From: Acidobacteriota bacterium
Lineage (GTDB): Bacteria; Acidobacteriota; Vicinamibacteria; Vicinamibacterales; 2-12-FULL-66-21
Length of the DNA stretch: 58,845 bases
Reading direction: 5' to 3'
Assembly: GCA_046735635.1 (NCBI GenBank)
Contig: JBKPTT010000149.1
Location: 1-58,845, forward strand
The notes below the pieces were generated by a model. That model ran no database searches and was not told the DNA's origin. It was given only the letters and a program-made list of their open reading frames with translations. Below are positions 45,663 through 58,845 of this stretch, piece after piece (the stretch's first letter is position 1; every line of letters starts with the position of its first letter). Made by a program: the position numbers and the translations under genes.

Positions 45663-45973
45663 CGACCGATCAGCTCGCGCCGCTCGAACACAAGCTTGGT
45701 CGCTTGCTCGTGGCCGGGGTATTCGCGAGCGCGGCGTTTTTGGTCGCTGGGCTGTTGCTCTGGCTACGCGATTCCACCGGATCGGCAGCGGCATGGTTGC
45801 TCAACGCGGGGCTCGTGACGCTCATGGCGACGCCCATTCTGCGCGTCGTCGTCTCGGTCACGGAATATGTGAGGCTTCGTCAGTGGTTTTTCGTGGCCGT
45901 CACGATCGTCGTCCTGGCGGAATTGACGGTCACGGTCTGGGCCGCGCTCTACAGGATTTCGCGCTCACCGTAA
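45659..45973 (+). CDS. DUF1634 membrane protein
   Basis: GTG 45659 overlaps the TauE TGA (GTGA). VTTDQLAPLEHKLGRLLVAGVFASAAFLVAGLLLW... with 3 TM. Usual partner of TauE. Confidence 0.7.
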   Translation: MTTDQLAPLEHKLGRLLVAGVFASAAFLVAGLLLWLRDSTGSAAAWLLNAGLVTLMATPILRVVVSVTEYVRLRQWFFVAVTIVVLAELTVTVWAALYRISRSP

Positions 45974-46998
45974 GCTTCGGGACTGGACGGAATCGCTCCC
46001 TCCTTCATCTCGGCGGTGACTTCTTTGAGCCGCTCGTCGGTCACCGCACGCATTTTCTGGAGCAGATCGGCGATCCGCTGGGCCTGAAAAACGACGGTGG
46101 CGAGGTCGCGGTGCAGGTTTGGATCCGGATAGCCGTGCTCAATGAGATCGCAGTGTCCCACGATCGTCTGAAGCGCGCCGTTGATCTCGGAGGCGATCGA
46201 TAAAGTCACCTCGGTCATCGTCTCCATCGAACGGTGTTTGCCCACCGCAATCTGCAGCTGCTGTGCGACGTACGCAATCGCAAAAATCTCGGCGATTGGC
46301 GTCAGCGCGTCGATGTGCTGCTGCTGAAACGCGTGCTTTCGCCGTGAAGCGACGTTCAACGTACCGACAACGCGTCCCTTCGCGACGAGTGGGAGGAGCA
46401 AGGCAGACAACAATCCGGAACTGTGCAGCACGTTGACGTCGAGCAGGTCAGGGGCACTCTCGCCGGTGTCGGCCAGGTTCAGCGGCTCGCGAGAGCGCAC
46501 GACGATGCCGAGAGCGGTGCGTTCTGTTTTGAAAACGACGTCGGGCCGGGGACGTGTGCGGCGCTCCTCCTCATCGGCCCGTGCCGTGTAGGTCTGAAAC
46601 TCCCGGCCATTGTCCGAGAGCAGTGCGAGCCCAACGCGGTCGCAAGGCACAACTCGGACGATGCGCTGCGCCAGTGCCTGGAACGCAAGCGGCACGTCGA
46701 CCGAGCGCGTGATGATTTCGAGAATGGCGTTCCACGTCTCGAGCTGCTCCACCTGGCTGACAGCCTCCGACCGGATGTGCTCCTCGCGGGAAAGCGTGCG
46801 CGCGAGTCCGCCAATCCGACGCGTGGAAACGACCGCAAGGATAATCGTCACGGCCCATGCCGCCACGACCTGCACGAGCACCAGTGGCCGGCGCGGCATT
46901 CCCCCCGCCATGGTCCAGGCGACAGCCTCGACGACGGCGAAGAGGGCGACGAGACCCCAGATGCCCAGAACTGCCGCGCGCGGGTGCCGCAACTTCAT
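45949..46998 (-). CDS. membrane-anchored GAF-domain protein with a degenerate HisKA/DHp-like helix and no ATPase domain
   Basis: 349 aa. 2 TM (AAVLGIWGLVALFAVVEAV; LVLVQVVAAWAVTIILAVV), a GAF-like core, then LSIASEINGALQTIVGHCDL where HisKA has (A/S)HE(I/L)xxPL: Ser replaces the phospho-His. The ORF ends without a HATPase_c domain. Its ATG overlaps the methylase TGA (ATGA at 46995-46998). Confidence 0.7.
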   Translation of the reverse strand: MKLRHPRAAVLGIWGLVALFAVVEAVAWTMAGGMPRRPLVLVQVVAAWAVTIILAVVSTRRIGGLARTLSREEHIRSEAVSQVEQLETWNAILEIITRSVDVPLAFQALAQRIVRVVPCDRVGLALLSDNGREFQTYTARADEEERRTRPRPDVVFKTERTALGIVVRSREPLNLADTGESAPDLLDVNVLHSSGLLSALLLPLVAKGRVVGTLNVASRRKHAFQQQHIDALTPIAEIFAIAYVAQQLQIAVGKHRSMETMTEVTLSIASEINGALQTIVGHCDLIEHGYPDPNLHRDLATVVFQAQRIADLLQKMRAVTDERLKEVTAEMKEGAIPSSPEAYGEREIL

Positions 46999-49900
46999 CG
47001 CAGAAGGCCAGTATATGGCGGATGAGACCCTTGAATTCCGACGAGCGCATCGAGCGCGTGGTCGCGTTCCGCTGCTGGTACGAGCGGAAATGAATCGAGG
47101 ATGTGGCGGAACTCGTCGGTCGAGCAGCCGTAGAGCCAGGCGACGAGTGCCTGTAGACGTGCTTCATCGTCGTCGTTGCGCGTTTCTGAGAGCGCGCGGC
47201 TCAGCTCTACGATCGCGGCATACGGCTGCGAGTCGCGCGGCGGGCGTGGAACCGGCAGCCGCTGGATGATCGCGACCGTCACGTGAGTGTTCACGCGCAG
47301 CCGAACCAGGTAGTTGGCGACGAAACTGTTGAACACGCCGCACAGAAAGTACTGGACGTCCAGATCGACTGGAGATTTGAGGCAGAACACGGTGTGTGTC
47401 GACACCGTGCCCGCCGGAAGAATTGCGGCAATGAGCGTGAGGCGATTGGACGCCGACGCCACATCGCGATACGCGAGCCGCGGCCGTTTGAACCTCATTC
47501 CTAACAGCCGTTCCGCCGTGGCCCGGCGGATTGAGTGAGTGCTTGCCGCCAGATCCACGGCAAAGGGCGAGATCTGCTTGCCTTCAACTACTGGGCACGT
47601 GTTTGCGCGTCGGGAACCAGCAACGAAGTGGCGGCGATCGTCGGTGGCGTTGAGCTCGCGACCGAATGTGACGTTCCACCCCCGCTCGCTCGTCACGGCA
47701 GACACCGACTCGACGATCCGCGAGAGGATTGCGAGATCTGTCCGCGTCCGCAGCTCCGGGATCGCATTCTGATCGCCCGAGAACTCGCGTAAGAGGCCGC
47801 GCGGAATTGGAACGACCCCGGCGTCGTCGCCATCCGGCAGTCGTTCCAGTTCCACCGGGGTGCGAATGCCGGCCCGCGCCGGAACCGCCCTGGTGCTCAT
47901 CCCGCGGGTGGCCGTGAGCAGCACGAATTTCAGTCCTCGATGGACCGGAAACAGACCATCGTGGTTCGCGACCGTCACGAACGTGTCGATTCCCGTCGAG
48001 TCGAGAAACGCACCGCGCAGCAGAGCGCATCCATGATCGATCGCGAAGCCTGACGGCAGAATCAGGCCGACGCGGCCGCCAATCTTCAGAAGCGCGAGGG
48101 CGCGCTCGGCGAACAACTGAAACAGGTTGGCGTGGCCGCGGCCCTGAAACCGGTACACGCCTGATTCACGGGCAAATGCCGTCAACCTTCCGGCATCGCT
48201 CGATTCGCCGCGATCGCCGCGCAGCATCTCCCATGGGGGATTGCCCAGGACCGCGTCGAAGCCGGGCGAGCCAAGTGAACGCCCATCGGGGTCAAAGAAG
48301 ACCTCGGGAAATTCCAGCGGCCAATGAAAGAAACGTTCGCGGTGGGACACGCTTGCGCATTCATCGAGAAACGACTTCGCGGTCCCGGCGGGAAGGCGCG
48401 GCCCGGCTCGCCCCAGCACGCCATCGAGGAGCGCGCCAAACATACCTGACGTCAGAGGACGACCGTCGCGGAACCACTCCGCACACCACAGGTCTGAGAT
48501 GGTTTTCCACGCCGCGAGTCGAGGCTCGGCGTGAAGCGTCCGTAACAGATCTTCTTTCGCGCGGACCTGCGCGACAGTGTCGCCCGGATCCATTGCCAAC
48601 GACACACGCCCGGCGACGACCGATTGCATGATCCGATCGAGCATCTCGACATCGAATAACGGCAAAGTGGCTTGCGGCCGGCGGCCGCGCATCGGAGGCT
48701 GCCGAGCGATGTCGGTCGGCGAAGCTCCGGCGATGCTGTTGCCGGCGAGCAGGTGGTGATCGAGAAAGGTGAGCGGGCGATCCGCGGCAAGAGTCGCAAG
48801 CCATAGCGACAGGCGCCCGAGCTGCACGGCCATGGGGTTGACATCCACACCATACAGGCACCGCTGCGCGATGAGGCGCCTGAAGCCCGCGCGATCCGAC
48901 TCGAGCACGTCAAAGCTCGAAATGGCGTCCTCGCGAAGCAGCGCTGCTTCATACGCAGAAGCCAGATACCGGCACGCCGCGACCAGGAAGGCACCGCTGC
49001 CCATGGCAGGGTCGACAATCCGAAGCGACAGGATTTCGGTCGGCGTCGCGCGAGCAACGAGGGGAGCGAGCGTCCTCCGAACGAGGAAATCGGTGAGCGT
49101 CCGGGGCGTGTAGAACGTTCCGGTCGCCTTCCGGCGTCCGGAGCGGACGAGCGTCAGCGTCCCGCGGTCTCCCTCAACAGCCGCAGGAGCGTAGTCGAGG
49201 ATGCGTTCGTACACTCCGCCGAGTTGTTCCACGCCGAGGTCCGCGTACGCAATGGGGAGCCGTCCGTGTGCACTGGTTCGCGTGGTCAGCGCGAGCATCG
49301 CCTCCCTGACCGCTGCGTCATCGAGCCGCACCGATTCTGCGAGCGGCGCGCCCAGCGGCGAAAACAACCGCCCATTGAACGCAGGAACGCGAAGCGTACC
49401 CGCGTGGCAGCCGTCGTGTGCGAGGCGCGCGATGGCCTGAAGCGCCTCCCACAGCCCCAGTGGCCGTCCCGATCGTGTCAGTGGTTCGCGAAGCGACTCG
49501 ATCGTGTAGCTCTCGCGAAACACCGGGTGCCAGGTCGGCACCAGTCCGCGTGCTTCGGCGAAGAGAAGGAACAGCATGCGGTAGATGACGACCAGCGACT
49601 CTTCCAGCAGCACGGCGGGCCGCGTCGTTCGGGGCCGCCCTAGCCGAGCGGTCGCGAATGCCGAGAGTAGAGCCTGTAGTGCCTCGAGCACTCCGTCCTG
49701 GAGGCACGCGCGCACCTCGGCTCTGAAGCGTTCCGATGCGAGCACGGCACGATCCAGCGCGGGGACCGGTGTCGCTGAGAGACGCTCCGACGCGAGCAGC
49801 CCCCGCAGCGCCGCTCCGGTCGAGGGCTCTCGACGAGCGATGTCCAAATCGAACTGAACGTATCGCCGCGAATACGTGCGAAGCGCATCGACGACGCGCA

Positions 49901-50276
49901 GCAGCGGCCCTGTGATGCAGAAGCACCACCGAATGCCACAGGCAATCCCAAGCCGCACGCTGTCATTCCAGACGGCCGCGGGGTCCCATCCCCAGGGCGT
50001 GACGACCAGAACACCACACGTGTGGCCGTCCGCCACCAATTGCGCGTGGATGGCACCGACATCTTCTCCCAATGGGATTACCGTATGCCCCAGGCTCTCC
50101 AGGAGTGGAACGGCCAGCCGATCGAATACAGCGCGCGCGCTGCTCGCGGGCCCAAGCTCCGACTCCAATCTCGACCGCCATCCAGCGGCTCCTCGCGAAA
50201 GCGTGCCGCGATCGCTGAGGAATTCCGCGGCGACGACGTCATGCGACAACAGCGATCCCGTGAGGCCCGGGATCAC
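46995..50276 (-). CDS. PglX/MmeI-like gamma-class N6-adenine DNA methyltransferase with C-terminal TRD-like region (about 1093 aa)
   Basis: FAEARGLVP...AFNGRLF helical region, GTFYTPR, motif I DPAMGSGAF (48993-49013), FHWPLEFPEVF, motif IV NPPW (48231-48242), TaqI-C-like tail. Start set at GTG 50276, which overlaps the helicase TGA. Confidence 0.85.
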   Translation of the reverse strand: MIPGLTGSLLSHDVVAAEFLSDRGTLSRGAAGWRSRLESELGPASSARAVFDRLAVPLLESLGHTVIPLGEDVGAIHAQLVADGHTCGVLVVTPWGWDPAAVWNDSVRLGIACGIRWCFCITGPLLRVVDALRTYSRRYVQFDLDIARREPSTGAALRGLLASERLSATPVPALDRAVLASERFRAEVRACLQDGVLEALQALLSAFATARLGRPRTTRPAVLLEESLVVIYRMLFLLFAEARGLVPTWHPVFRESYTIESLREPLTRSGRPLGLWEALQAIARLAHDGCHAGTLRVPAFNGRLFSPLGAPLAESVRLDDAAVREAMLALTTRTSAHGRLPIAYADLGVEQLGGVYERILDYAPAAVEGDRGTLTLVRSGRRKATGTFYTPRTLTDFLVRRTLAPLVARATPTEILSLRIVDPAMGSGAFLVAACRYLASAYEAALLREDAISSFDVLESDRAGFRRLIAQRCLYGVDVNPMAVQLGRLSLWLATLAADRPLTFLDHHLLAGNSIAGASPTDIARQPPMRGRRPQATLPLFDVEMLDRIMQSVVAGRVSLAMDPGDTVAQVRAKEDLLRTLHAEPRLAAWKTISDLWCAEWFRDGRPLTSGMFGALLDGVLGRAGPRLPAGTAKSFLDECASVSHRERFFHWPLEFPEVFFDPDGRSLGSPGFDAVLGNPPWEMLRGDRGESSDAGRLTAFARESGVYRFQGRGHANLFQLFAERALALLKIGGRVGLILPSGFAIDHGCALLRGAFLDSTGIDTFVTVANHDGLFPVHRGLKFVLLTATRGMSTRAVPARAGIRTPVELERLPDGDDAGVVPIPRGLLREFSGDQNAIPELRTRTDLAILSRIVESVSAVTSERGWNVTFGRELNATDDRRHFVAGSRRANTCPVVEGKQISPFAVDLAASTHSIRRATAERLLGMRFKRPRLAYRDVASASNRLTLIAAILPAGTVSTHTVFCLKSPVDLDVQYFLCGVFNSFVANYLVRLRVNTHVTVAIIQRLPVPRPPRDSQPYAAIVELSRALSETRNDDDEARLQALVAWLYGCSTDEFRHILDSFPLVPAAERDHALDALVGIQGSHPPYTGLLR

Positions 50277-52744
50277 TCGGTGTTCTCCGCGTGCGCGACG
50301 AGAACCGCGCACAAACGAGCGGACGGTTGCAAGTGAGCCGACGACGAGAGCCTCTTGAGGTAGTTGTTCGCGTCGTTGAGCAGCAACGTCGCGACGCGCT
50401 TGCGCGCCGACAAGGTCCGGACCGTCCGCTGATCGAAAAGCCCGGGCTGCACGAGCTGTCGGGCGGCAGAGGGCAGCGCACGAAGGATCGCCTGTTCGCG
50501 TCCGGCGAGCCGTTCCGCTGCCTGCCGGTACCGCATGGCAATCTCGGAGAGCTGTGCGCCGCAATGCTGCAACAGCACTCCGCGAATGTGCTCGTCTATG
50601 GCAGTTGGAAGGGTGCTGAGTAATCTGACGGGATGCTGCGCCTGCCCACCGTGGGCCTCTGCATCGATCGCGCAGCGTGCCACCGCAATCTCGCGATGCG
50701 GGCGATTGCCGTCCGGCGTCTCGAGCGAGATCTCGTACACGGCGAATACGCCAGGATCGACGTGTCGTGACCTTTCAATAAACGTCACGACGACAGAGGT
50801 GGGGCTCCTGGAGATCGCGTGCCGGCGCAGCTCCATCAGGCGCTCCGCCTCGCGCGCCGCTTCTTCACGGAGGCCGGGCGGCGGGTCGGAGAAGCCCGCA
50901 GCCACCGTTTCTGGTGCCATCGCGCGGACCGGCTGTCGGTCAAGCACCGCTGCCGCGACCTGGGACTCGGTGACCGCATCCACCAGAAAGGCGTTGTCTC
51001 CGAGCAACGACTGGGAACGCGTCATGCGCTCGACCAGTGGCGCGAGCACGAGCCGTTCAGCCGTGTCGCGAGCGACTAGTAACAACTCGTGGACGCGAGT
51101 AGCCTGTCCGATTCGATCCACCCGGCCGGCACGTTGCTCCAACCGTGCCGGGCTCCACGGCAACTCGAAATGGATCACTATGCGGCATCGCTCGTGCAGA
51201 TTGAGGCCTTCGGCGGCGGCATCGGTCGCGAGCAGGAGCGAGGAGCGGGTGTTGAACGCTTCTTGCGCGCATGCCCGCTCTCGGAGGTCCATCCCTCCGT
51301 GAAGGACCAGCAGGTTCGGCTGTACCGCGGACAACTCGCGGCGGAGCCGCTCCAACGTGTCCCGGTATTCGGTGAAGACGATTGCCGGCTCGCGCAGCCG
51401 CCCAAGCAGCCGTCGTAAGAACCGCGTCTTCGATTCGCAAAGCCGCGCGCGCCGCGCCGCCCGCAAGATCTTGCCGAGCACTCTGCGCTCCTCGCGCGGG
51501 TTGGCAAGCCCGGGTGTTCGGAGAACCGACCCGGGTTCGGCGTCCGCGAGCGCGTCTTCGTCTTCGAGCGGAAGCGAGGGTTGAAATTGAAAGGCTTCGC
51601 CGCTGTCGGCGCGGCCCGCGAGCAGCTCGAGGCGCCGCAGGATCGACGATGCCAAAGAGCCAGCACTCGACAGCGCACGTTTTCTGAGAACTACGGCTAC
51701 CAGCCTCACGTGCTGGTCACTCCTCGCGTGTGCTTCGCGGCACAAGCGTGCCGTGTAATCTTCGAGCCGGCGGTGCATGCAGCGTTCGGCCGGCGTCAGC
51801 CTGACAGCGGCAACACGCCTTCGCCGTGTCAGGTGCGGCATCACCTCGGACCGGCGACGCCGGAACATGACGATCTGCGGCGCGTCGGAGTCGGTCGCGC
51901 CCAACCTGCACATCGCGTTGAACTGTTCGGCGTCGCCGGCGTGCGGGGTGGCGGTCAACAGGATGACTCGGCGAGCGCGCGATGCGACTGCGTGAACCGC
52001 GGCACGCCGTGCGGTTCCGAGCGCCGCCTGGTGCGCTTCGTCCACGACGACCGCATCCCAGGTGACCTCTTCCAGCGGCCGGAGAACCTCTGGGCGTTTG
52101 ATCAAATCGCACGACGCAACATAAATGCCGGGGAGCGCCCACGGATTCACGTCAATCGGGAGCTCCGACGCTGCGCGCGCCAGCCAACGTGAGCCGGCGT
52201 CGATCGACGGGAGACGAAAATGAGTGGCGAGCTGCCGGACCCACTGATCGCGAAGACCTGCCGGCACGATGACGAGGGCACGAATCTCGGAATGCTCCGA
52301 CGCGAGCTCGTTCAGGAGCAGGCTGGCCTGTATCGTCTTCCCGAGCCCTACGCCGTCGGCGATCATCACGCGCGTCACACCGTCGCGGCGCATCAGCAGC
52401 GCCGGCTCGAGCTGGTACGGCAGGATCGTCACGCGGCTGTCCCCGGCCGCAGTGAATCCGCCGGCCGGGGTCAACGCTGCAGCGAAGCCGCGGATTACTC
52501 GAATCCATGTGCCGGGAGGGACCACTCGAAACTCGCCACCGCGCGGCAAGGGTTTCGGCCGATCAAACGGCAGCAGGATGGTGCGGCACCCGCGGTTTCG
52601 TACGCTTTCCGGGCGCAGCCGCAGCGATTCACAATCGATGTAGCTGCAGCGTTCGACGAGGCTCCAGACGTGGCCGCGTACGAGCACGCGGCTGCCAGCA
52701 TGCCAGATGCGAGGTGTGTGCCCCATGCCTGGACGGCATGGCAA
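50273..52744 (-). CDS. SNF2/RapA-like SF2 ATPase (helicase-like translocase)
   Basis: 823 aa. ADGVGLGKT (52334-52360), DEAH (52031-52042), LLTATPH, helicase-C block LLATDAAAEGLNLH...ELPWSPARLEQRAGRVDRIGQ, and a C-terminal region of about 220 aa without a recognisable motif. Confidence 0.85.
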   Translation of the reverse strand: MPCRPGMGHTPRIWHAGSRVLVRGHVWSLVERCSYIDCESLRLRPESVRNRGCRTILLPFDRPKPLPRGGEFRVVPPGTWIRVIRGFAAALTPAGGFTAAGDSRVTILPYQLEPALLMRRDGVTRVMIADGVGLGKTIQASLLLNELASEHSEIRALVIVPAGLRDQWVRQLATHFRLPSIDAGSRWLARAASELPIDVNPWALPGIYVASCDLIKRPEVLRPLEEVTWDAVVVDEAHQAALGTARRAAVHAVASRARRVILLTATPHAGDAEQFNAMCRLGATDSDAPQIVMFRRRRSEVMPHLTRRRRVAAVRLTPAERCMHRRLEDYTARLCREAHARSDQHVRLVAVVLRKRALSSAGSLASSILRRLELLAGRADSGEAFQFQPSLPLEDEDALADAEPGSVLRTPGLANPREERRVLGKILRAARRARLCESKTRFLRRLLGRLREPAIVFTEYRDTLERLRRELSAVQPNLLVLHGGMDLRERACAQEAFNTRSSLLLATDAAAEGLNLHERCRIVIHFELPWSPARLEQRAGRVDRIGQATRVHELLLVARDTAERLVLAPLVERMTRSQSLLGDNAFLVDAVTESQVAAAVLDRQPVRAMAPETVAAGFSDPPPGLREEAAREAERLMELRRHAISRSPTSVVVTFIERSRHVDPGVFAVYEISLETPDGNRPHREIAVARCAIDAEAHGGQAQHPVRLLSTLPTAIDEHIRGVLLQHCGAQLSEIAMRYRQAAERLAGREQAILRALPSAARQLVQPGLFDQRTVRTLSARKRVATLLLNDANNYLKRLSSSAHLQPSARLCAVLVAHAENTE

Positions 52745-52882: not shown

Positions 52883-54841
52883 TCAGGCCCCCGACTGTTG
52901 ATCGTTTCTTGCGTCCTCGAGCGCCCGCTTCGAGAGAATCACTGGATGGGACATGCGGCTGCGCCCCGGCTGCCGCGGTGCCGGCACGCGCACCCGTCGA
53001 ATACGGCAGCCGCGCGCGTACGCGACGCCGGCGACATTGGCCGGGATTGATAGACCGGCTATCAGATCGCGAAACTCGTCGCCCTTTGACGCTGCCGCGG
53101 AGTGGCGCTTGCCGGAATCGGGCCGCGCCCATGCGCTCACGGGCATCAGTTTCAGGAGCGGACTGTCGGTTCCTTCTTCAACCCGGAAGTCCGAGAACGG
53201 ATCGTGATCGAGGTCAATCTCGATTTCGAGCTCCGCCGCCTGACGCGCGCGCTCCTCCGCCTCGCGACGAAGGCGTTCCTGTTCCGCGGCTGCTTCCGCC
53301 GCGACGCGTTCGGCTTCTTCCCTCGCCTTTCGCTTGGCCTCTTCCTTCGCCTTGCGGTCGGCTTCCTCTTTGGCGCGCCGTTCCTCTTCTTCCTTGGCGC
53401 GGCGTGCGGCTTCTTCGTTCGCCCGTCGTTCGGCTTCTTCTTTGGCGCGCCGTTCGGCTTCTTCGTTCGCCCTGCGTGCGGCTTCTTCCTTTGCCCGTCG
53501 CGCAGCTTCCTCTTTCGCCCGGCGCTCCGCTTCTTCCTTGGCGCGGCGTGCGGCTTCTTCCTTCGCCCGTCGTTCGGCTTCTTCTTTGGCCCGGCGTGCG
53601 GCTTCTTCCTTTGCCCGGCGCTCGGCTTCTTCCATTGCCCGTCGCGCAGCTTCCTCTTTCGCCCGTCGCTCCGCTTCTTCCTTCGCGCGGCGTGCCGCTT
53701 CTTCCTTGGCGCGACGCTCGGCCTCTTCCTTTGCCCGTCGCTCGGCCTCTTCTTTTGCCCGACGTGCGGCCTCTTCTTTGGCTCGGCGGTCGGCTTCTTC
53801 GTTCGCCCGTCGCTCCGCTTCTTCCTTCGCGCGGTGTGCCGCTTCTTCCTTGGCGCGGCGCTCGGCTTCTTCCTTTGCCCGTCGCTCAGCCTCCTGCTTC
53901 GCCCGCCGTTCCGCTTCTTCCTTGGCCTGGCGCTCCGCCTCGTGCTTCGCCTGGCGCTTTGCCTCGTCTTGCGCCCGACGCTCCGCCTCCACCGTTTCGC
54001 GTTCGAGTCGCTCGGCTTCTTCTTTGGCGCGCCGCTCTTCTTCCCTCGCTCGGCGTTCGGTATCTTGTCTGGCCCGTCGCTCCGCGTCTTCTCTGGCGTC
54101 CCGCTCCGTGTCTTCTCTCGCCCGCCGCTCCTCTTCCAGGCGCCTTGTTTCCTCTTCTTCGGCTACCACCGCGAGCGGCGCATTCGTGACGAGCGGTTTG
54201 CGCGGCGCCGTCTCCTTCTTCTTCTGGCCAGCCGGGTCCGACCGCCGCCACTCGAACGGGGACGCCCAGGAGGATCCGCTGTCCACCGCGGGCTCCTCCG
54301 CCGTCGCGTCGGCCGCGTGCGCTGCCGAATGCGTATCCCGTGCTACAGGCTCATGCGGCGCGGCATCGTCGCGCCGCGACCGCTCGATGACCGGTGGCGG
54401 CGCCAGCGCGACATGCGCCTTCATCTCCGCCGCGCGCGCGATGAACGTGCTGACTTCGTCCGCGAACGCTGTGGGATCGCACCCCGGTATTGCGTCCGCG
54501 CTCTTCTTGCGCCGGAGCTTCCCGAACAGTCCGCCGCCCTCCTGCCCACCGTCGCCGTCGTGCGAAGACGACGCCAGCTGCGGAATCGTGTGCGTCTGGA
54601 CGTGCTCGGCGCCGGACAAGTCGCGCAGGTGCGCGATGAGCTCCTGCTCGTCGCGCGGCGAGAGCAGCGCGGTCAGCAGAATGACGTCGGGAATGCGCGA
54701 CGAGGTGGCGGCGATGGCAGCGTCGCGTGAATCAACGACCATCAGCTCGGCGTGCACTCGATCCCGGATGACGCGCTTGAGCACCGATGCTTGCCGGTGA
54801 TCGGGCTCGAGCGCCAGAACGAACGGGGCGTGACTATGCAA
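52883..54841 (-). CDS. pseudo-receiver (CheY-like, acceptor Asp replaced) protein with an ER/K single-alpha-helix-type repeat region of about 310 aa
   Basis: 652 aa. N-terminus FVLALEPDHRQASVLKRVI...IPDVILLTALLSPRDEQELIAHLRD has the CheY fold pattern with Thr at the D57 position. aa 228-540 are (KEEAxRRA)n. Unique C-terminal domain of about 110 aa. Confidence 0.75.
   Translation of the reverse strand: MHSHAPFVLALEPDHRQASVLKRVIRDRVHAELMVVDSRDAAIAATSSRIPDVILLTALLSPRDEQELIAHLRDLSGAEHVQTHTIPQLASSSHDGDGGQEGGGLFGKLRRKKSADAIPGCDPTAFADEVSTFIARAAEMKAHVALAPPPVIERSRRDDAAPHEPVARDTHSAAHAADATAEEPAVDSGSSWASPFEWRRSDPAGQKKKETAPRKPLVTNAPLAVVAEEEETRRLEEERRAREDTERDAREDAERRARQDTERRAREEERRAKEEAERLERETVEAERRAQDEAKRQAKHEAERQAKEEAERRAKQEAERRAKEEAERRAKEEAAHRAKEEAERRANEEADRRAKEEAARRAKEEAERRAKEEAERRAKEEAARRAKEEAERRAKEEAARRAMEEAERRAKEEAARRAKEEAERRAKEEAARRAKEEAERRAKEEAARRAKEEAARRANEEAERRAKEEAERRANEEAARRAKEEEERRAKEEADRKAKEEAKRKAREEAERVAAEAAAEQERLRREAEERARQAAELEIEIDLDHDPFSDFRVEEGTDSPLLKLMPVSAWARPDSGKRHSAAASKGDEFRDLIAGLSIPANVAGVAYARGCRIRRVRVPAPRQPGRSRMSHPVILSKRALEDARNDQQSGA
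53222..54160 (-). repeat. coding tandem repeat, 24-bp period (AAG GAA GAA GCS GMR CGC CGC GCS), within the ER/K protein gene
   Basis: Dozens of near-identical 8-codon units are visible in the DNA. They generate long shadow ORFs in other frames on both strands. Confidence 0.85.
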
Positions 54842-54863: not shown

Positions 54864-55136
54864 TTACGTTTTCAACATGAAGACGACGAGCACTGCGCCG
54901 ACCGCCGCGAACACGAGCAGCGGCGCGTTTTCGATGCTCTGATGCCTGGCCGCCGACACGACTGCGTTGCCCAGATCCGTGGCGCGATCGCCCCACGGCG
55001 TCAAGCTGCCGCCGGCCCCGCCGTGAACGAAATCGTTGAACGCGTCGTGCACGCGATCGTCGACCGACACGAGCACCAACAGCACCGCGACGAACACCGC
55101 CGCCGAAGCGATTGCCTGCTTGATCCCCAGCTTCAT
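54864..55136 (-). CDS. small two-TM membrane protein, unknown function
   Basis: 90 aa. IASAAVFVAVLLVLVSV and LLVFAAVGAVLVVFML. Ends 22 nt upstream of the pseudo-receiver gene. Confidence 0.5.
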   Translation of the reverse strand: MKLGIKQAIASAAVFVAVLLVLVSVDDRVHDAFNDFVHGGAGGSLTPWGDRATDLGNAVVSAARHQSIENAPLLVFAAVGAVLVVFMLKT

Positions 55137-55595
55137 TGGCGAAAGACCCCTTGTGAATTGCCGTTCGTCGTGCCGTACGAACGGGTGCAGACGCCGTCAA
55201 CGCAAGCGATGTGCCGAGGCCCGAAGCGGGTGCGAAATTCCGTGCAACCCGCTCGAAAGACAAGTGAAAGGAGAGGAAACGCGCCCGCGCGCGATCGTCT
55301 TCATGCGCGCCGGTTTCAGCGCCATGCACGAATTTGACGAGGCCACTTACGAAAGTGACGAGCGAAGGCGTGTGCGCGCCGGGCGCACGCGGCTCGTCAC
55401 GCGCGAGTACCGGGCCCGGCAATCGGTTCTCGGTGAACCACTTGCGCCCTGCCAGGCGGTTGCGCGCGCGTGCCGTGGCACAGCCGTTGCGATTAGGGGC
55501 CCCGTGGCGCGGCGCGTCGCCGCGCATTTACCAAAATACGCGGCCGCGCCGCTCAATCGCACCGCCCCAGCGGTGCACGGGCCAGGGAGGCTCTC

Positions 55596-55775
55596 ATGAT
55601 GCTTCACGAAATCGTCAAGAAGTTCGCGAACCAGGAAGACGGGCAGGACCTGCTCGAGTACGCGCTGCTCGTGGCGCTGATCGCGCTCGTCGCGATCGGT
55701 GCAGTCGGCCTGGCCGGCGGTGCGGTGAACACGATCTTCACCAACATCGCGAACGCGCTCACCGCGGCGGCGTAG
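55596..55775 (+). CDS. flp: Flp-family type IVb pilin
   Basis: Below the track length cut-off; found manually. GGGAGG SD, MMLHEIVKKFANQEDGQDLLEYALLVALIALVAIGAVGLAGGAVNTIFTNIANALTAAA with the G/xxxxEY processing motif. Confidence 0.85.
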   Translation: MMLHEIVKKFANQEDGQDLLEYALLVALIALVAIGAVGLAGGAVNTIFTNIANALTAAA

Positions 55776-55820
55776 TAACTGCGGTTCGTCAACCCGAACG
55801 GAGCTGAAGGAGCTCACACA

Positions 55821-55994
55821 ATGATCAACTACATCAAGTCGTTCGTGCGCGAGGAAGACGGGCAGGACCTGCTCGAGTATGCGCTGCTCGTAGCGTTGAT
55901 CGCGCTCATCGCGATCGGTGCGGTCGGGCTCGCGGGCGGTGCGGTGAACACGATCTTCACCAATATCGCCAACGCGCTCACGGCGGCGGCGTAG
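55821..55994 (+). CDS. flp: Flp-family type IVb pilin (tandem paralogue)
   Basis: Found manually. MINYIKSFVREEDGQDLLEYALLVALIALIAIGAVGLAGGAVNTIFTNIANALTAAA. Confidence 0.85.
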   Translation: MINYIKSFVREEDGQDLLEYALLVALIALIAIGAVGLAGGAVNTIFTNIANALTAAA

Positions 55995-56077
55995 TCACGT
56001 CACTTGCTGGTGCACGGTCCCAGACCGTGCACCAGCGTTCGTTTCGGTTCGGCAACTTTTATTCTGGGAGGAGCGCG

Positions 56078-56272
56078 ATGCAGTCCCCAGCCGCGGTTGC
56101 GACGTTCAGACAGCTCGCCGAGGAGCGGTTCGGCCGTGAAGAAGGCCAGGACCTCCTCGAGTACGGGTTGCTCGTCGCGCTGATCGCGATGGTCGCGCTC
56201 GGCGCCGTGACGACGCTCGGGAACACGATTACGAACGTGTTCTGGAACGCGATTGCTGCCGCAAGCCTCTAA
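56078..56272 (+). CDS. flp: Flp-family type IVb pilin (divergent third copy)
   Basis: ATG 56078 after a GGGAGG SD: MQSPAAVATFRQLAEERFGREEGQDLLEYGLLVALIAMVALGAV... The longer track start 56027 is rejected. Confidence 0.8.
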   Translation: MQSPAAVATFRQLAEERFGREEGQDLLEYGLLVALIAMVALGAVTTLGNTITNVFWNAIAAASL

Positions 56273-56765
56273 CCCCGCGTTCATCGCGCTCGCGGCGGGC
56301 GCGCTGACTGCAACGGTGATCGACCTCCGCACGCGGCGCATTCCGAACGTGCTGACGGGGTCGCTGGCGGCGGTGGGAATCGGGCTCGCGGCCGCCGGGG
56401 TGAGCGGCGTATCCGTGGGCGCATCGCTCGCGGGACTCGTGCTGGGCCTGGTGCTGATGCTTCCCGGTCACATGATCGGGGCCACCGGAGCCGGCGACGT
56501 GAAGCTGATGGCGGCGGTCGGAGCGGTCATCGGAGTTCACGTGATCGTGAAAGCGTTTCTGTTTACCGCGCTCGTCGGCGGGGTGCTGGCAATCGCGGTG
56601 GCGCTCAGAAGGCGCCGACTCGGCGCGACGCTCTCCGGCACGACGCGCCTGATTGCCTCCCCAGCCGGCGCGCGACAGGAAATCCAAGGCGCCACGAAAG
56701 CGAGCCGGTTCGCCTACGGGCCGGCCATCGCGCTCGGGAGCCTTATGGCAGCCCTGATCGGATGA
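56253..56765 (+). CDS. cpaA: A24-family prepilin peptidase
   Basis: 170 aa. TATVIDLRTRRIPN and GAGDVKLMAAVG catalytic Asp motifs. TTG start is uncertain. Confidence 0.8.
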   Translation: MLPQASNPAFIALAAGALTATVIDLRTRRIPNVLTGSLAAVGIGLAAAGVSGVSVGASLAGLVLGLVLMLPGHMIGATGAGDVKLMAAVGAVIGVHVIVKAFLFTALVGGVLAIAVALRRRRLGATLSGTTRLIASPAGARQEIQGATKASRFAYGPAIALGSLMAALIG

Positions 56766-57205
56766 CAGACGAGGTCGATATGCGCATGAGACTTCGCAAC
56801 CAACGCGGGAACGCTCTGATCGAAACGGCCATCACCGTGCCGATCGTGCTCTTGATTGCCGTCGCCATCTTCGAGTTCGGCCGCGCGTATCAGACGCAGC
56901 AGGTACTGACCAACGCTGCCCGCGAAGGCGCGCGCCAGGCGATCCTCGAAGGCATCACCGATGCTCAAGTCCAGACGACGGTGCGCAATTACCTGACGGG
57001 AGGCGGTCTGACGGGGGTCACTCCCACGATCAACCGGACCGTTTCGTTGAATCCGGCGGGTGGGTGTCCGTGCGGGACGCGCGTCACCATCACGTATCCG
57101 TTCAGCTTTATCGTCCTCCAACCGGTGGCTCAGTTGGTGGTTCGCAGTTCGACCGTGGGAAGAGCGATCACCATGCAGGCGTCCGCGATGATGCGGAACG
57201 AATAA
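56762..57205 (+). CDS. tadE: TadE-like pilus assembly (pseudopilin) protein
   Basis: 147 aa. RGNALIETAITVPIVLLIAVAIFEFGRAY TadE N-terminal motif. Confidence 0.8.
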   Translation: MTDEVDMRMRLRNQRGNALIETAITVPIVLLIAVAIFEFGRAYQTQQVLTNAAREGARQAILEGITDAQVQTTVRNYLTGGGLTGVTPTINRTVSLNPAGGCPCGTRVTITYPFSFIVLQPVAQLVVRSSTVGRAITMQASAMMRNE

Positions 57206-57219
57206 CCGAGGGAACCGTC

Positions 57220-58083
57220 ATGCGAAACCGAATCTTTGCCGTCCTCGCTCTCGCCGTGCTCGCCGGCGGCGGATTGGCGTACGGCACATACAACTTCATC
57301 AACAACCAGCCGGTGAAGTCGGCCAACACGCCGACGCAGCCGGTGGTCGTCGCGGCCGCGGACCTGCAGCTGGGCGCCGAGCTCAAGAAAGAAGATTTGC
57401 TCGTCGTGCAGTTCCCCACCGGCAAGGCGCCGGACGGCACGTTCGCGAAGCCTGATGAAGTCATCGGCCGCGGACTGATCGTCCCGATCGTCAAGAACGA
57501 GCCGATCCTCCGCGCCAAGCTCGCGTCCAAGGAGGCTGGCTCGGGGCTGCCGCCGGTGATTCCCGAGGGCATGCGCGCCGTGTCAGTCCGCGTGAACGAG
57601 GTCGTCGGCGTCGCGGGCTACGTGCTGCCCGGCAACCGAGTCGACGTGCTCGCCACCGCGAGTCCGACCGATCAGCACTCGGATACCACGACGAAGGTCA
57701 TTCTCTCGAACGTGCAGGTCGTGACGGCCGGCACCCGCATGGAGCAGGACCAGGAGAAAGACAAGCCCGTGCAGGTGACCGTCGTGACGCTGCTGGTGAG
57801 CCCCGAGCAGTCCGAACGTCTGGCCCTGGCGAGCACCGAGGGCAAGATTCAGCTGGCGCTGCGCAACCCGCTCGACCTCGGCGCCCCGGAGACGCCCGGC
57901 ATCAAGACCGCGGGTCTTCTGGGCAATGTGAAAACGCCGGGCCCCGTCCGACAGGTCGCTTCGTCGTCGCGCCCGCGCGCGGCGGCGCAGCCGGTGACAC
58001 AACTGGCGCCGCCTCCCCCGCCGCCGATGCCCACGGTTGAAATCATTCGCGGCGATAAGCGCGCGACGGAAGTGATCAAGTAG
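57220..58083 (+). CDS. cpaB: Flp pilus assembly protein CpaB/RcpC
   Basis: ATG 57220: MRNRIFAVLALAVLAGGGLAYG, a SAF-like domain (VVVAAADLQLGAELKKEDL) and an RcpC beta domain. The track 5' extension overlaps tadE. Confidence 0.82.
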   Translation: MRNRIFAVLALAVLAGGGLAYGTYNFINNQPVKSANTPTQPVVVAAADLQLGAELKKEDLLVVQFPTGKAPDGTFAKPDEVIGRGLIVPIVKNEPILRAKLASKEAGSGLPPVIPEGMRAVSVRVNEVVGVAGYVLPGNRVDVLATASPTDQHSDTTTKVILSNVQVVTAGTRMEQDQEKDKPVQVTVVTLLVSPEQSERLALASTEGKIQLALRNPLDLGAPETPGIKTAGLLGNVKTPGPVRQVASSSRPRAAAQPVTQLAPPPPPPMPTVEIIRGDKRATEVIK

Positions 58084-58125
58084 CTGTCACCCGACAGCTC
58101 ATATCTGACGGTTTTGGAGGACCCC

Positions 58126-58845
58126 ATGAATCCGGCTTGCACGGCAGAGTCTCGCGGCAGGCACCGCTCGTTCGTCGCGGCGCTCGTCGTGTTCATCATC
58201 GTGATCCTCGTCGCGGCGCCGCAGGCGGCGCAGCAACAGCAGCAGCCGCCCGCGTCCTTTGCGACCAACGGCGGACTCACGGCCCCGGCGCCGCCGGCCG
58301 CGGAGATCAATGCGACCTCCATCGACCTGCTGGTCGGCCGCTCGACGATCCTGAACGTCGGCGCCACGGTCACGCGCGTGTCGCTGACCGTGCCGGACAT
58401 CGCCGACGCGCTGGTGACGACGCCGACGCAGCTGCTGATTCACGGCAAGCAGCCGGGGATCATCTCGATGTTCGTGTGGGACAAGAGCGGCGCGATTCGC
58501 ACCTACGAGGTGAACGTGCGCCGCGATCTCAGCGCGCTGAAAGAGCAGGTGAAGCAGCTGTTCCCCGGCGAGGGGATCACGGTGACGGGCAGCGGCAAGG
58601 ACGTCGTGCTCTCCGGCGTCGTGTCGGGCCAGTACGTGATCGACAAGGCCGGCGATGTAGCCACCGGATTCGTCGAGAAGAAGGAGAACGTCGTCAACCT
58701 GCTGAAGCAGCGTGAGGGAGTCGCCTCCAACCAGGTGCTGCTGCGCGTCCGGTTCGCGGAAGTCAGCCGCAACGCGCTGCAGGAGCTTGGCGTCTCGCTC
58801 TTCTCAGACGGCAATAACAACTATTTCGGTCGGACCTCGACCCAG
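58126..58845 (+). CDS. cpaC: CpaC/RcpA secretin, N-terminal part (runs off the window)
   Basis: Not in the track (no stop). GGAGGA SD, MNPACTAE...FVAALVVFIIVILVAAPQAA signal, BON/pilus-formation N domain (VTRVSLTVPDIADALVTTPTQLLIHGKQPGIISMFVWD) and secretin start LLRVRFAEVSRNALQELG. Confidence 0.8.
   Translation, partial: MNPACTAESRGRHRSFVAALVVFIIVILVAAPQAAQQQQQPPASFATNGGLTAPAPPAAEINATSIDLLVGRSTILNVGATVTRVSLTVPDIADALVTTPTQLLIHGKQPGIISMFVWDKSGAIRTYEVNVRRDLSALKEQVKQLFPGEGITVTGSGKDVVLSGVVSGQYVIDKAGDVATGFVEKKENVVNLLKQREGVASNQVLLRVRFAEVSRNALQELGVSLFSDGNNNYFGRTSTQ

What the first reader, a model, noticed from the sequence alone, without database searches (positions are those of the whole stretch)
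46995..52744. Translationally coupled SNF2 ATPase + PglX/MmeI-like N6-adenine methyltransferase with none of the known partner genes: candidate minimal defence/epigenetic system
Seen in sequence:
- An 823-aa SNF2/RapA-type ATPase carries GLGKT, DEAH, LLTATP and QRAGRVDRIGQ.
- Its TGA (50273-50275) overlaps a GTG (50274-50276) that opens a methyltransferase of about 1093 aa, giving a GTGA overlap.
- The methyltransferase has FAEARGLVP...FNGRLF, YTP, DPAMGSGAF, FHWPLEFPEVF, NPPW and a long TRD-like tail.

Established knowledge:
- This MTase architecture is that of MmeI-type IIL enzymes and BREX PglX.
- SNF2 + N6-MTase pairs occur in DISARM (DrmD + DrmMI, with DrmA/B/C).
- Type ISP enzymes fuse nuclease, ATPase and MTase in one chain.

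No PglZ, BrxC, BrxL, DUF1998, PLD or Mrr-like gene exists on either side here. Both flanks are fully inside the window.

The MTase N-terminal region of about 220 aa has a nuclease-like strand pattern (LLESLGH...GEDV...GVLVVTPWG), but T-P-W sits where an E-x-K would be expected.

Inference: either a two-gene ATPase + MTase module acting as a new restriction, exclusion or epigenetic system, or a split and possibly nuclease-dead Type ISP/IIL derivative. By eye there is no compositional break and no mobile-element gene, so it looks resident rather than recently acquired.
Basis: partly seen in the sequence, partly recalled or inferred. Interest (0 to 1): 0.85.

Follow-up and report, generated by a model that had tools for sequence, protein, structure and literature searches.

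The report
Effector-less SNF2 helicase–adenine methylase pair
Two overlapping genes for a RapA-like SNF2 motor and a nuclease-dead MmeI/PglX-type adenine methyltransferase are the "helicase + methylase" module of the ARMADA/DISARM phage-defence systems. Here the module has no nuclease partner and is inherited vertically as a resident chromosomal operon across the soil-bacterial order Vicinamibacterales.

Summary
Both genes lie on the minus strand: a SNF2 ATPase at 50273-52726/52744 and a 1093-aa N6-adenine MTase at 46995-50276, joined by a GTGA overlap.

The pair is not a new kind of module. It is the ArmA/ArmB (= DrmD/DrmMI, BrxHII/PglX-like) pair of ARMADA, class 1 DISARM and BREX-3. Its nearest outgroup relatives (33-41% identity) sit in canonical ARMADA operons, with a 1600-1680-aa YprA/DUF1998/Vsr helicase-nuclease (ArmC), inside defence islands.

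What is unusual is the context.
- All 76 genome loci with upstream DNA keep the pair. At least 594 GTDB contigs encode a relative, and the best 80 all appear to be Acidobacteriota/Vicinamibacterales.
- The pair stands alone at one housekeeping locus.
- It co-diverges with its neighbours.
- It is under purifying selection in every domain, including the specificity domain (dN/dS 0.10-0.22).
- No ArmC, PLD, PglZ or BrxC occurs in 1.78 Mb of related loci.

The MTase N-terminus has a restriction-endonuclease fold without catalytic residues, and this is ancestral to ArmB-like proteins. The helicase C-terminal domain is RapA-like.

Best reading: a domesticated, methylation-only module. This is a new variant of a known kind, of moderate interest.

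The parts
50273..52726 (-). RapA-like Swi2/Snf2 ATPase (ArmA/DrmD/BrxHII-like), 817 aa from the ATG at 52726. The ORF is open to a TTG at 52744, which would give 823 aa.
   Evidence: Pfam SNF2-rel_dom 7.6e-15 and Helicase_C 3.2e-19. PADLOC DrmD 2e-69 and BrxHII 1.7e-61. PDB profile search: RapA 1.6e-43. P0121 is identical and 817 aa.
52460..52726 (-). Helicase N-terminal domain (about 90 aa, conserved PFDRP motif). Fold not determined.
   Evidence: Conservation profile. It lies N-terminal of the region that matches RapA and DrmD models.
50960..52459 (-). SNF2 ATPase core: Walker A GLGKT 52334-52348, DEAH 52031-52042, TATP 51944-51955, motif VI QRAGRVDRIGQ 51104-51136.
   Evidence: These residues are invariant in 33 homologues.
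50276..50959 (-). RapA-type C-terminal domain of the helicase. It is a separate ORF in about 12 related species.
   Evidence: AF2 pLDDT 80.4. The only Foldseek hits of note are RapA 6bog/8t0l/8so8, prob 0.97-0.57. Split ORF at L029 7390-7998.
50432..50452 (-). Invariant V-Q-x-G-L-F-D loop motif in the C-terminal domain (VQPGLFD here).
   Evidence: V, Q, L and F are invariant in 22 divergent sequences. The loop lies between helices at pLDDT about 70. Distant ArmA-like helicases carry QLSLF, QLTLF, QPLLF or QASLF in their C-terminal regions.
50273..50276 (-). GTGA stop/start overlap between the helicase and the MTase.
   Evidence: The same 4-nt overlap occurs in 31 of 76 related loci, and most others have gaps of 30 nt or less.
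46995..50276 (-). Gamma-class N6-adenine DNA methyltransferase of MmeI/PglX/ArmB architecture, 1093 aa.
   Evidence: Pfam Eco57I 3.8e-19, N6_Mtase, MmeI_Mtase. PADLOC DrmMI 8.8e-107. 120 or more full-length homologues at 56-70% identity.
49827..50159 (-). N-terminal restriction-endonuclease-like (PD-(D/E)xK fold) domain without catalytic residues. T-P-W occupies the place of E-x-K.
   Evidence: AF2 pLDDT 87.6 with alpha-beta-beta-beta-alpha-beta topology. Foldseek top hits: DrdV 7lo5 prob 0.98, EcoT38I prob 0.99, HsdR EcoR124I. No conserved D...ExK in 47 sequences. ArmB-like outgroups show the same.
49167..49826 (-). Helical region containing the FAEARGLVP and FNGRLF motifs.
   Evidence: Highly conserved, with identity to the query of 0.56-0.79 per 40-residue block.
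47937..49166 (-). Methyltransferase catalytic core: FYTP 49104-49115, SAM motif DPAMGSGAF 48987-49013, catalytic NPPW 48231-48242.
   Evidence: (invariant columns). PDB hits CamA, BsaXI, BseCI and TaqI cover this core only.
46998..47936 (-). Target-recognition domain and C-terminal helical tail (RLAYRDVA...NRLTLIAA, HTVFC, NSFVANYLVR).
   Evidence: NCBIfam TIGR02987 (Alw26I/Eco31I/Esp3I MTase family) matches residues 673-1075, E 8.6e-27. TRD dN/dS is 0.10-0.22.
45949..46998 (-). Neighbour, probably co-transcribed here but not a conserved part: a membrane-anchored GAF protein with a DHp-like helix and no ATPase domain. Its ATG overlaps the MTase stop (ATGA).
   Evidence: Pfam GAF 1.7e-14. Junction. 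In relatives the gap is 80-140 nt, or the gene is separated by inserted genes or absent.

Best explanation
The locus encodes an effector-less ArmA/ArmB-type module. This is the SNF2 + methyltransferase half of ARMADA / class 1 DISARM defence systems. In the order Vicinamibacterales it has lost, or never had, the YprA-type helicase-nuclease and has become a resident, vertically inherited operon.

Proposed mechanism:
- The two proteins are made in fixed proportion through translational coupling and work as a complex.
- The MTase reads a short, probably asymmetric site with its C-terminal recognition domain and transfers a methyl group to N6 of one adenine (SAM motif DPAMGSGAF, catalytic NPPW).
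- The RapA-like SNF2 motor uses ATP to translocate on duplex DNA or to clear bound proteins, so that sites are found and modified efficiently.
- No active nuclease is present in either protein or nearby, so the only output is methylation of the cell's own chromosome. The mark then serves a resident purpose: an epigenetic or replication-linked mark, or a self-mark read by something unlinked.

Shown here: domain identities, intact catalytic motifs, coupling, absence of nuclease residues and of partner genes, strict synteny, co-divergence and purifying selection.

Inferred: complex formation, the actual methylation activity and its site, the role of the motor, and the biological use of the mark.
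For: Identity of the module:
- PADLOC best hits are DrmD (2e-69) and DrmMI (8.8e-107).
- RapA is by far the closest solved structure, and the C-terminal domain has a RapA fold.
- The nearest outgroup MTases (33-41% identity) lie in SNF2 -> MTase -> ArmC (DEAD + Helicase_C + MZB/DUF1998 + DUF559/MTES_1575) operons in defence islands.
- Published ARMADA work describes ArmA as a BrxHII/RapA-like helicase and ArmB as a PglX-like MTase.

No effector:
- Pfam scans of the window find none.
- Three ArmC, two PLD and the Thermus large helicase give 0 tblastn hits in 1.78 Mb (154 related loci plus the whole window). ArmA controls hit 87 loci.
- No third gene family is conserved with the pair.

Dead nuclease domain.

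Resident and vertical:
- At least 594 GTDB contigs encode a relative. The best 80 all appear to be Acidobacteriota/Vicinamibacterales; most titles say so and 4 carry other names.
- The helicase is directly upstream in all 76 genome loci with upstream DNA.
- Identity of the MTase tracks that of flanking PanE, TauE and GAF (Spearman 0.62-0.76).
- In a scan anchored on TauE, 15 of 17 metagenome contigs with at least 2.5 kb of DNA on the MTase side carry the MTase.
- Among 2.9 million viral contigs there are only 8 distant, partial hits.
- GC content is typical of the window.

Selection:
- dN/dS is 0.12-0.19 for the MTase, 0.10-0.22 for its TRD and 0.20-0.27 for the helicase.
- Frame breaks occur in only 9 of 84 loci, mostly in MFD-labelled MAGs; if those are long-read assemblies, as I believe, sequencing error could account for the breaks.
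- Catalytic motifs are invariant.

Precedent: B. subtilis DnmA (YeeA), a nuclease-less MmeI-like MTase with a neighbouring helicase, acts as an orphan regulator, gives no phage defence and concentrates near the replisome.
Against: - No methylome or experiment exists, so activity, target site and function are all inferred.
- In ARMADA the homologous pair is essential for defence. A defence role without a nuclease, as in BREX, is therefore not excluded.
- Only about 8-10 kb of flanks (58.8 kb here) were examined per genome. An unlinked ArmC-like or other reader could exist elsewhere.
- The denominator is unknown: I could not count how many Vicinamibacterales species lack the pair.
- The helicase C-terminal domain evolves fast (dN/dS 0.28-0.57) and is a separate ORF in some lineages. 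A few loci have broken genes, so the constraint is not absolute.
Confidence: 0.5

Rival explanations
1. It is still a defence system. Either the two proteins exclude unmethylated incoming DNA without cutting it, in a BREX-like way (motor plus site reader blocking replication). Or they act as the sensor/modification half of an ARMADA-like system whose nuclease effector is encoded elsewhere in the genome.
For: The homologous ArmA/ArmB and DrmD/DrmMI pairs work only in defence systems, and ArmA Walker and ArmB NPPW mutants lose protection. All enzymatic motifs are intact. The operon structure is the same as in ARMADA. BREX shows that an MTase-centred system can defend without a dedicated nuclease (established knowledge).
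Against: Defence systems are normally patchy, mobile and diversifying. Here the pair sits at one housekeeping locus in every related genome locus examined with upstream DNA, co-diverges with metabolic neighbours and has a TRD under purifying selection. In E. coli, by contrast, armB is the most variable gene of its island. There is no ArmC or PLD in 1.78 Mb of related loci. In ARMADA, deletion of ArmC abolishes defence. No defence-island neighbours were found.
Confidence: 0.3
2. It is a split, nuclease-dead Type ISP or Type IIL restriction-modification enzyme. In this view a former single-chain nuclease-motor-methylase was broken into two genes.
For: The MTase has the Type IIL layout (REase-fold N-domain, helical region, gamma-class MTase, TRD), and its N-domain is closest to that of the Type IIL enzyme DrdV. 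PADLOC also gives Type IIG hits.
Against: The motor is RapA-type SNF2 with a RapA-like C-terminal domain, not the HsdR-type motor of Type I/ISP enzymes. There is no Mrr domain or coupler. No helicase-MTase fusion of about 1900 aa appears among the best 150 representative clusters. The catalytic D...ExK is already missing in ArmB-like outgroups, so the dead domain is not a recent loss in a Type IIL enzyme.
Confidence: 0.07
3. It is a functionless relic of a decayed defence system that merely persists.
For: It lacks the effector. A few loci show frame breaks. In some species the helicase C-terminal domain is a separate ORF.
Against: Full-length intact genes persist across species that have diverged to 44% identity. 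dN/dS is 0.1-0.3 in all domains, the catalytic motifs are invariant and the gene overlap is conserved. The split C-terminal ORFs keep the conserved motif, and the frame breaks are concentrated in MFD-labelled MAGs.
Confidence: 0.03
4. The helicase is a RapA-type RNA-polymerase recycling factor, and the MTase is an unrelated orphan that happens to be adjacent.
For: RapA is the closest solved structure and the C-terminal domain fold is shared.
Against: The NCBIfam RapA score is 124 bits against a cut-off of 576. The pair is adjacent in all 76 genome loci with upstream DNA, usually with overlapping codons. Adjacency also holds in distant ARMADA relatives.
Confidence: 0.05

Closest known systems
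ARMADA (DISARM-related antiviral defence array) ArmA + ArmB
   Same: Same two proteins in the same order with overlapping codons: a RapA/BrxHII-like SNF2 helicase followed by a PglX/YeeA-like N6-adenine MTase. The MTase has a dead REase-fold N-domain. The nearest outgroup homologues (33-41% identity) are in ARMADA operons.
   Different: There is no ArmC (YprA/DUF1998 helicase with Vsr-type nuclease) and no ArmD. Both proteins are shorter (817 vs 874-1017 aa; 1093 vs 1240-1500 aa). The locus is a housekeeping one rather than a defence island or mobile element. The MTase is the more conserved partner rather than the variable one.
Class 1 DISARM DrmD + DrmMI
   Same: These are the best PADLOC matches for both proteins, and it is the same SNF2 + adenine MTase pairing.
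   Different: The DISARM core DrmA/DrmB/DrmC is absent. The NCBIfam DrmD score is 257 bits against a cut-off of 610. The DrmMI model matches mainly the catalytic core, its best stretch covering residues 371-739.
B. subtilis DnmA (YeeA)-YeeB-YeeC
   Same: It is a nuclease-less MmeI-like MTase next to an SF2 helicase. It behaves as an orphan, regulatory MTase and gives no phage protection. It is the best functional precedent.
   Different: The gene order is reversed (MTase first). A third gene (T5orf172/GIY-YIG YeeC) is present. That locus is a horizontally acquired low-GC island, whereas this pair is vertically inherited. No sequence comparison with YeeA/YeeB was run here.
Type IIL restriction-modification enzymes (MmeI, DrdV)
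   Same: Same MTase chain layout: REase-fold N-domain, helical region, gamma-class MTase, TRD. The N-domain is structurally closest to that of DrdV.
   Different: The catalytic D...ExK is missing, so cleavage is not expected. A dedicated SNF2 partner is present, which Type IIL enzymes do not have.
Type ISP enzymes (LlaGI, LlaBIII)
   Same: They also combine an ATP motor with an adenine MTase and TRD.
   Different: Type ISP enzymes are a single polypeptide with an Mrr nuclease and an HsdR-type motor. Here there are two genes, a RapA-type motor and no active nuclease.
E. coli RapA
   Same: It has the closest solved structure for the ATPase core and the C-terminal domain.
   Different: The helicase is not a RapA orthologue (124 bits against a cut-off of 576), is shorter, and is always coupled to a DNA methyltransferase.

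Membership tests
ARMADA | YprA-family helicase ArmC (DEAD + Helicase_C + DUF1998/MZB, C-terminal Vsr-type nuclease) in the operon | tested here: not met
   Pfam of window ORFs finds none. tblastn with three ArmC proteins gives 0 hits in the window and 153 related loci. Outgroup operons do have ArmC.
ARMADA | BrxHII/RapA-like SNF2 helicase immediately followed by a PglX-like adenine MTase | tested here: met
   ArmA queries from ARMADA operons hit the helicase at 30-38% identity in 87 loci.
DISARM class 1 | Core triad DrmA (helicase), DrmB (DUF1998) and DrmC (PLD) | tested here: not met
   No such domains in the window or in relatives' called genes. PLD queries give 0 hits.
DISARM class 1 | DrmD equivalog-level match | tested here: not met
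   NCBIfam NF038317 scores 257 bits against a cut-off of 610. PADLOC DrmD at 2e-69 shows family-level similarity only.
BREX (any type) | PglZ phosphatase and BrxC ATPase alongside PglX | tested here: not met
   No PglZ or BrxC among the window ORFs scanned. PglX models match weakly, at 46 bits or less against cut-offs of 400 or more.
Type IIL (MmeI family) | N-terminal PD-(D/E)xK nuclease with catalytic D...ExK in the same chain as the MTase and TRD | tested here: not met
   The fold is present, but no conserved acidic or lysine residues lie on strands 2-3 in 47 homologues. T93, W95 and G96 are conserved instead.
Type ISP | Single polypeptide with Mrr nuclease, HsdR-type motor, coupler, MTase and TRD | tested here: not met
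   There are two genes. The motor is RapA-type. There is no Mrr hit. There are no fused relatives in the top 150 clusters.
RapA (RNA polymerase recycling factor) | Equivalog-level match to RapA | tested here: not met
   NCBIfam PRK04914 scores 124 bits against a cut-off of 576.
Gamma-class N6-adenine DNA methyltransferase | SAM-binding motif I (xDPxxGxGxF) N-terminal of catalytic motif IV (NPPW/Y) | tested here: met
   DPAMGSGAF lies at residues 422-430 and NPPW at 679-682. Both are invariant in 33 homologues.
Gamma-class N6-adenine DNA methyltransferase | Actual m6A formation at a defined site | not testable with these tools
   This needs a methylome or an enzyme assay.
DnmA-YeeB-YeeC | MTase -> helicase -> T5orf172/GIY-YIG gene order | tested here: not met
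   The order here is helicase -> MTase, and the next gene is a GAF protein.

The most novel reading that the evidence does not exclude
A phage-defence module has been domesticated into a bacterial 'remodeller + DNA methyltransferase' machine that maintains a chromosome-wide m6A mark. In this reading the RapA-like motor clears or tracks along DNA for the MTase. It is tethered to the replisome through the invariant Q-x-G-L-F motif in its C-terminal domain, which resembles the beta-clamp-binding pentapeptide. That would make it a prokaryotic analogue of DDM1/LSH-assisted, PCNA-coupled maintenance methylation. It would also imply that ArmA-type helicases in ARMADA/DISARM (QLSLF, QLTLF) find replicating phage DNA through the clamp.
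Probability: 0.1. Interest if true: 0.85.

Novelty: new variant of a known kind. Interest (0 to 1): 0.55.

Why it matters
ARMADA, class 1 DISARM and BREX-3 all contain a SNF2 helicase paired with a PglX-like methyltransferase. What this pair does on its own, and why a methylase needs a motor, is unknown.

The Vicinamibacterales version is a natural separation-of-function case. It is the pair without any nuclease effector, kept under selection for a long time in a very abundant group of soil bacteria. It offers a simple two-gene system for testing motor-dependent methylation.

If it is methylation-only, it would be a clear example of a defence module turned into a resident epigenetic system across a whole order, comparable to the origin of Dam, CcrM or DnmA. 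It also warns annotation pipelines that DrmD/DrmMI-type hits without DrmABC/ArmC are not necessarily broken defence systems.

Tried and rejected
1. NCBIfam gave a weak hit to 'pilus expression-regulating Snf2 helicase' (48 bits), and the pair lies next to Flp/Tad pilus genes. Two literature searches found nothing. In deeper clades the pilus genes are not adjacent. I dropped this as synteny by descent.

2. GAF protein and the REC-like/ER-K coiled-coil protein as system components. Both are conserved only in the sub-clade of the window, can be separated from the pair by inserted genes, and are replaced by QueF/HU/Smr or PanE elsewhere. They are not part of the invariant unit.

3. The + strand ORF 53102-54730 (GC3 0.80, no Pfam hit) is a shadow of the minus-strand ER/K repeat gene.

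I repeated it with substrings of database proteins.

5. Sequence-only PDB search of the MTase found only catalytic-core relatives, so the N-domain needed fold comparison.

6. Phage origin: only 8 distant, partial hits in viral contigs.

7. Helicase-MTase fusions as evidence of interaction: none in the top 150 representative clusters.

8. A published methylome for Luteitalea pratensis: none found.

Full report
**Observation**

The finding is accurate. Both genes are on the minus strand.

The upstream ORF 50273..52744 translates to an 823-aa protein from a TTG. An identical database protein of 817 aa begins at the ATG at 52726, so that start is more likely. It carries GLGKT, DEAH, TATP and QRAGRVDRIGQ.

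The downstream ORF reads through from 50564, but a GTG at 50276 overlaps the helicase TGA (ACC GAG TGA / GTG ATC). That start gives a 1093-aa protein containing FAEARGLVP, FNGRLF, FYTP, DPAMGSGAF, FHWPLEFPEVF and NPPW.

Pfam assigns SNF2-rel_dom + Helicase_C to the first protein and Eco57I + N6_Mtase + MmeI_Mtase to the second. GC content across the pair (0.63-0.67) is that of the whole window.

The flanks are ordinary:
- Downstream: a GAF protein, TauE, an MBL-rhodanese protein, PanE and an amidohydrolase.
- Upstream: a protein with a receiver-like N-terminus and about 300 aa of EEAERRAK repeats, then Flp/Tad pilus genes.

The rest of the window holds efflux, amine oxidase, kinase and transport genes. 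No PglZ, BrxC, DUF1998, PLD or Mrr domain was found.

**What the two proteins are**

PADLOC's best models are DrmD (2e-69, then BrxHII) for the helicase and DrmMI (8.8e-107, then Type IIG enzymes) for the MTase. NCBIfam's DISARM DrmD, RapA, DpdE and BREX PglX models all score far below their cut-offs. The proteins are therefore relatives of these families, not members.

A profile of 33 helicase homologues hits E. coli RapA at 1.6e-43. The next solved SNF2 protein is at 1e-21.

An AF2 model of the helicase C-terminal 228 aa (pLDDT 80.4) matches only RapA chains in the PDB (prob 0.97, 0.87, 0.57). The motor is therefore RapA-type throughout.

An AF2 model of MTase residues 1-225 (pLDDT 87.6) has alpha-beta-beta-beta-alpha-beta topology. 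Its best PDB matches are the Type IIL enzyme DrdV (prob 0.98), the endonuclease EcoT38I (prob 0.99) and the nuclease domain of HsdR. The E-values are marginal (5e-3 at best), but the hits agree on a PD-(D/E)xK fold.

In 47 homologues down to 34% identity there is no conserved D...ExK. T93, W95 and G96 occupy the third strand.

**The pair is a known module**

Papers on ARMADA describe ArmA as a BrxHII/RapA-like Swi2/Snf2 helicase and ArmB as a PglX-like, YeeA-related MTase. This pair is shared with class 1 DISARM (DrmD/DrmMI). It is followed by ArmC, a YprA-family helicase with DUF1998 and a Vsr-type nuclease. All the genes are needed for defence.

I tested this link directly. In a search of 1.84 billion cluster representatives, the family of the window forms about 50 full-length clusters (41-52% identity, 1080-1160 aa). 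Next come proteins of 1230-1500 aa at 33-41% identity.

Three of those outgroup proteins were located on contigs. Each sits in the same arrangement:
- SNF2 -> MTase, overlapping in two of the three loci (7-8 nt) and 61 nt apart in the third.
- An optional small gene.
- A 1600-1680-aa protein with DEAD + Helicase_C + MZB (DUF1998) +/- DUF559/MTES_1575.
- A PLD protein in one locus (a faint PLDc_2 hit in a second).
- Neighbours that I take to be typical of defence islands (pPIWI_RE, SLFN/AlbA, NACHT).

Relatives on Thermus and Deinococcus plasmids (25-32% identity) show the same layout. The Thermus 1838-aa helicase is an ArmC homologue (28% over 1800 aa, E 2e-119).

All these ArmB-like proteins share the N-terminal REase-fold domain and also lack the catalytic residues. 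The dead nuclease domain is therefore ancestral to the family, not a recent loss.

**What is unusual: the context**

The best 80 carry full-length matches in nearly every case at 44-58% identity and appear to be Vicinamibacterales/Acidobacteriota MAGs; most titles say so, 4 carry other names.

- In every genome locus with upstream DNA (76 of 76) the SNF2 gene is directly upstream on the same strand.
- The 4-nt ATGA/GTGA overlap is kept in 31 loci, and most others have gaps of 30 nt or less.
- The flanks are housekeeping genes that change slowly with divergence. The window's clade has Flp pilus genes, the ER/K protein, GAF, TauE and PanE. Deeper clades have QueF, HU and Smr upstream and PanE, TauE or NrfD downstream.
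- No third gene family travels with the pair.
- Identity of the MTase to the query correlates with that of PanE, TauE and GAF in the same loci (Spearman 0.62-0.76), as expected for vertical descent.
- Starting from an independent anchor (TauE) in metagenome contigs, 15 of 17 contigs with at least 2.5 kb on the relevant side carry the MTase. The other two show no MTase hit in the 1.6-2.5 kb they extend beyond GAF, which is inconclusive because in some lineages inserted genes separate GAF from the MTase.
- Queries with three ArmC proteins, two PLD proteins and the Thermus large helicase gave no hit in 1.78 Mb of these loci plus the whole window. ArmA controls hit 87 loci.
- Only 8 distant, partial relatives exist among 2.9 million viral contigs.

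**Selection**

I computed Nei-Gojobori dN/dS on seven MTase pairs and four helicase pairs.

| Region | dN/dS |
|---|---|
| MTase, whole | 0.12-0.19 |
| MTase catalytic core | 0.08-0.19 |
| MTase recognition domain (TRD) | 0.10-0.22 |
| MTase dead REase-like domain | 0.12-0.32 |
| Helicase, whole | 0.20-0.27 |
| Helicase C-terminal domain | 0.28-0.57 |

The MTase is more conserved than the helicase (56-70% against 46-58% among the closest 120 homologues). This is the reverse of E. coli ARMADA islands, where armB is the variable gene.

Frame breaks occur in 9 of 84 loci, mostly in MFD-labelled MAGs; if those are long-read assemblies, as I believe, sequencing error could account for the breaks. 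Walker A, DEAH, motif VI, DPxMGSGAF and NPPW are invariant.

This pattern does not fit a decaying relic. It also does not fit the patchy, diversifying behaviour usual for defence genes.

**Mechanism proposed**

The two proteins are made together and probably form a complex. The MTase recognises a short, probably asymmetric site and makes m6A. The RapA-like motor spends ATP to move on DNA or clear obstacles so that sites are modified.

With no nuclease in either chain or nearby, the output is methylation of the host chromosome. The mark then serves a resident role. I give this reading a confidence of 0.5.

B. subtilis DnmA (YeeA) is the best functional precedent. It is a nuclease-less MmeI-like MTase next to a helicase, shown to be an orphan regulator with no anti-phage activity and enriched at the replisome.

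Rivals:
- Non-nucleolytic or trans-effector defence (0.3). This cannot be excluded because only flanks were examined and ArmA/ArmB are defence proteins elsewhere.
- A split Type ISP/IIL enzyme (0.07). This is contradicted by the RapA-type motor, the lack of fusions and the ancestral loss of catalytic residues.
- RapA plus an unrelated MTase (0.05).
- A functionless relic (0.03).

**An unexplained detail**

The fast-evolving C-terminal domain of the helicase has an invariant V-Q-x-G-L-F-D (window 50432-50452). It lies in a loop of lower model confidence between two helices.

In about 12 species this C-terminal domain is a separate ORF of about 200 aa that keeps the motif. Distant ArmA-like helicases carry QLSLF, QLTLF, QPLLF or QASLF in their C-terminal regions; in two of them it likewise precedes a last predicted helix and a terminal strand.

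From memory, this matches the beta-clamp-binding pentapeptide QL[SD]LF. It could equally be a structural staple or the docking site for the MTase. I treat clamp tethering as the most novel reading not excluded (probability about 0.1).

**Verdict**

This is a new variant of a known kind: the ArmA/ArmB (DrmD/DrmMI) module without its effector, fixed as a core operon in Vicinamibacterales. Interest is moderate (0.55). It is not a new type of system, but it is an unusually clean natural case for asking what the SNF2-methylase pair of ARMADA/DISARM/BREX-3 does by itself, and a likely example of a defence module converted to a resident epigenetic function.

Noticed in passing
window 52883-54841 (-): A 652-aa protein with a receiver-like N-terminus (no Pfam hit) followed by about 300 aa of near-perfect EEAERRAKEEAARRAK repeats (an ER/K-type helix) and a short C-terminal domain. 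The repeats cause the extreme AT skew (-0.67) and a long shadow ORF on the + strand (53102-54730). The gene is conserved upstream of the helicase in about 30 related loci and lies next to the Flp/Tad pilus genes.
   Followed up: partly
window 45949-46998 (-): A GAF protein with what look like two N-terminal membrane helices and a DHp/HisKA-like helix, but no ATPase domain. Its ATG overlaps the MTase stop (ATGA), so helicase, MTase and GAF are all translationally coupled in this genome. In relatives the gap is 80-140 nt, or other genes intervene.
   Followed up: partly
window 12261-17024 (-): A single 1587-aa ORF joins a complete AcrB-type RND pump (residues 5-1019) to an outer-membrane efflux protein (OEP/TolC-like) domain (residues 1362-1567). 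I do not recall seeing this fusion before.
   Followed up: no
L029 7390-7998 (also L020, L021, L023, L034, L041, L042, L052, L059, L071): In one sub-clade the RapA-type C-terminal domain of the helicase is encoded as a separate ORF of about 200 aa between the SNF2 core gene and the MTase. It still carries the QPGLFD motif.
   Followed up: partly
window 50432-50452; L159 and L162 helicase C-termini; L084-L086: A Q-x-x-L-F motif (VQPGLFD here; QLSLF, QLTLF, QPLLF, QASLF in distant ArmA-like helicases) recurs in the C-terminal region across the family, although its offset from the ATPase core differs (about 60 aa after the core in Thermus/Deinococcus, about 190 aa here). It resembles the beta-clamp-binding pentapeptide.
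   Followed up: partly
L035 4072-5229, L050 3942-4529, L082 427-1161: In deeper Vicinamibacterales clades the genes just upstream of the pair are QueF (preQ0 reductase), an HU-type DNA-binding protein and an Smr-domain protein. All look like housekeeping genes and none is a defence gene.
   Followed up: partly
L001 7331-10004: In one MAG with a 0.7-Mb contig the helicase is broken into three or four ORFs while the MTase is intact. This is either sequencing or assembly frameshifts, or a real case of helicase loss with MTase retention.
   Followed up: no
L084/L087 (Thermus aquaticus pTA78): A 28%-identical SNF2 + MTase pair lies directly after parA/parB on a 78.7-kb plasmid. A second helicase of 1024 aa lies about 2 kb beyond the MTase, just across the record origin, with Abi, HicB and VapC genes nearby.
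   Followed up: partly
window 55000-58845: Start of a Tad/Flp pilus cluster (prepilin peptidase CpaA at 56253-56765, RcpC/CpaB at 57064-58083). Relatives have two Flp pilin genes and a secretin at the same place.
   Followed up: no
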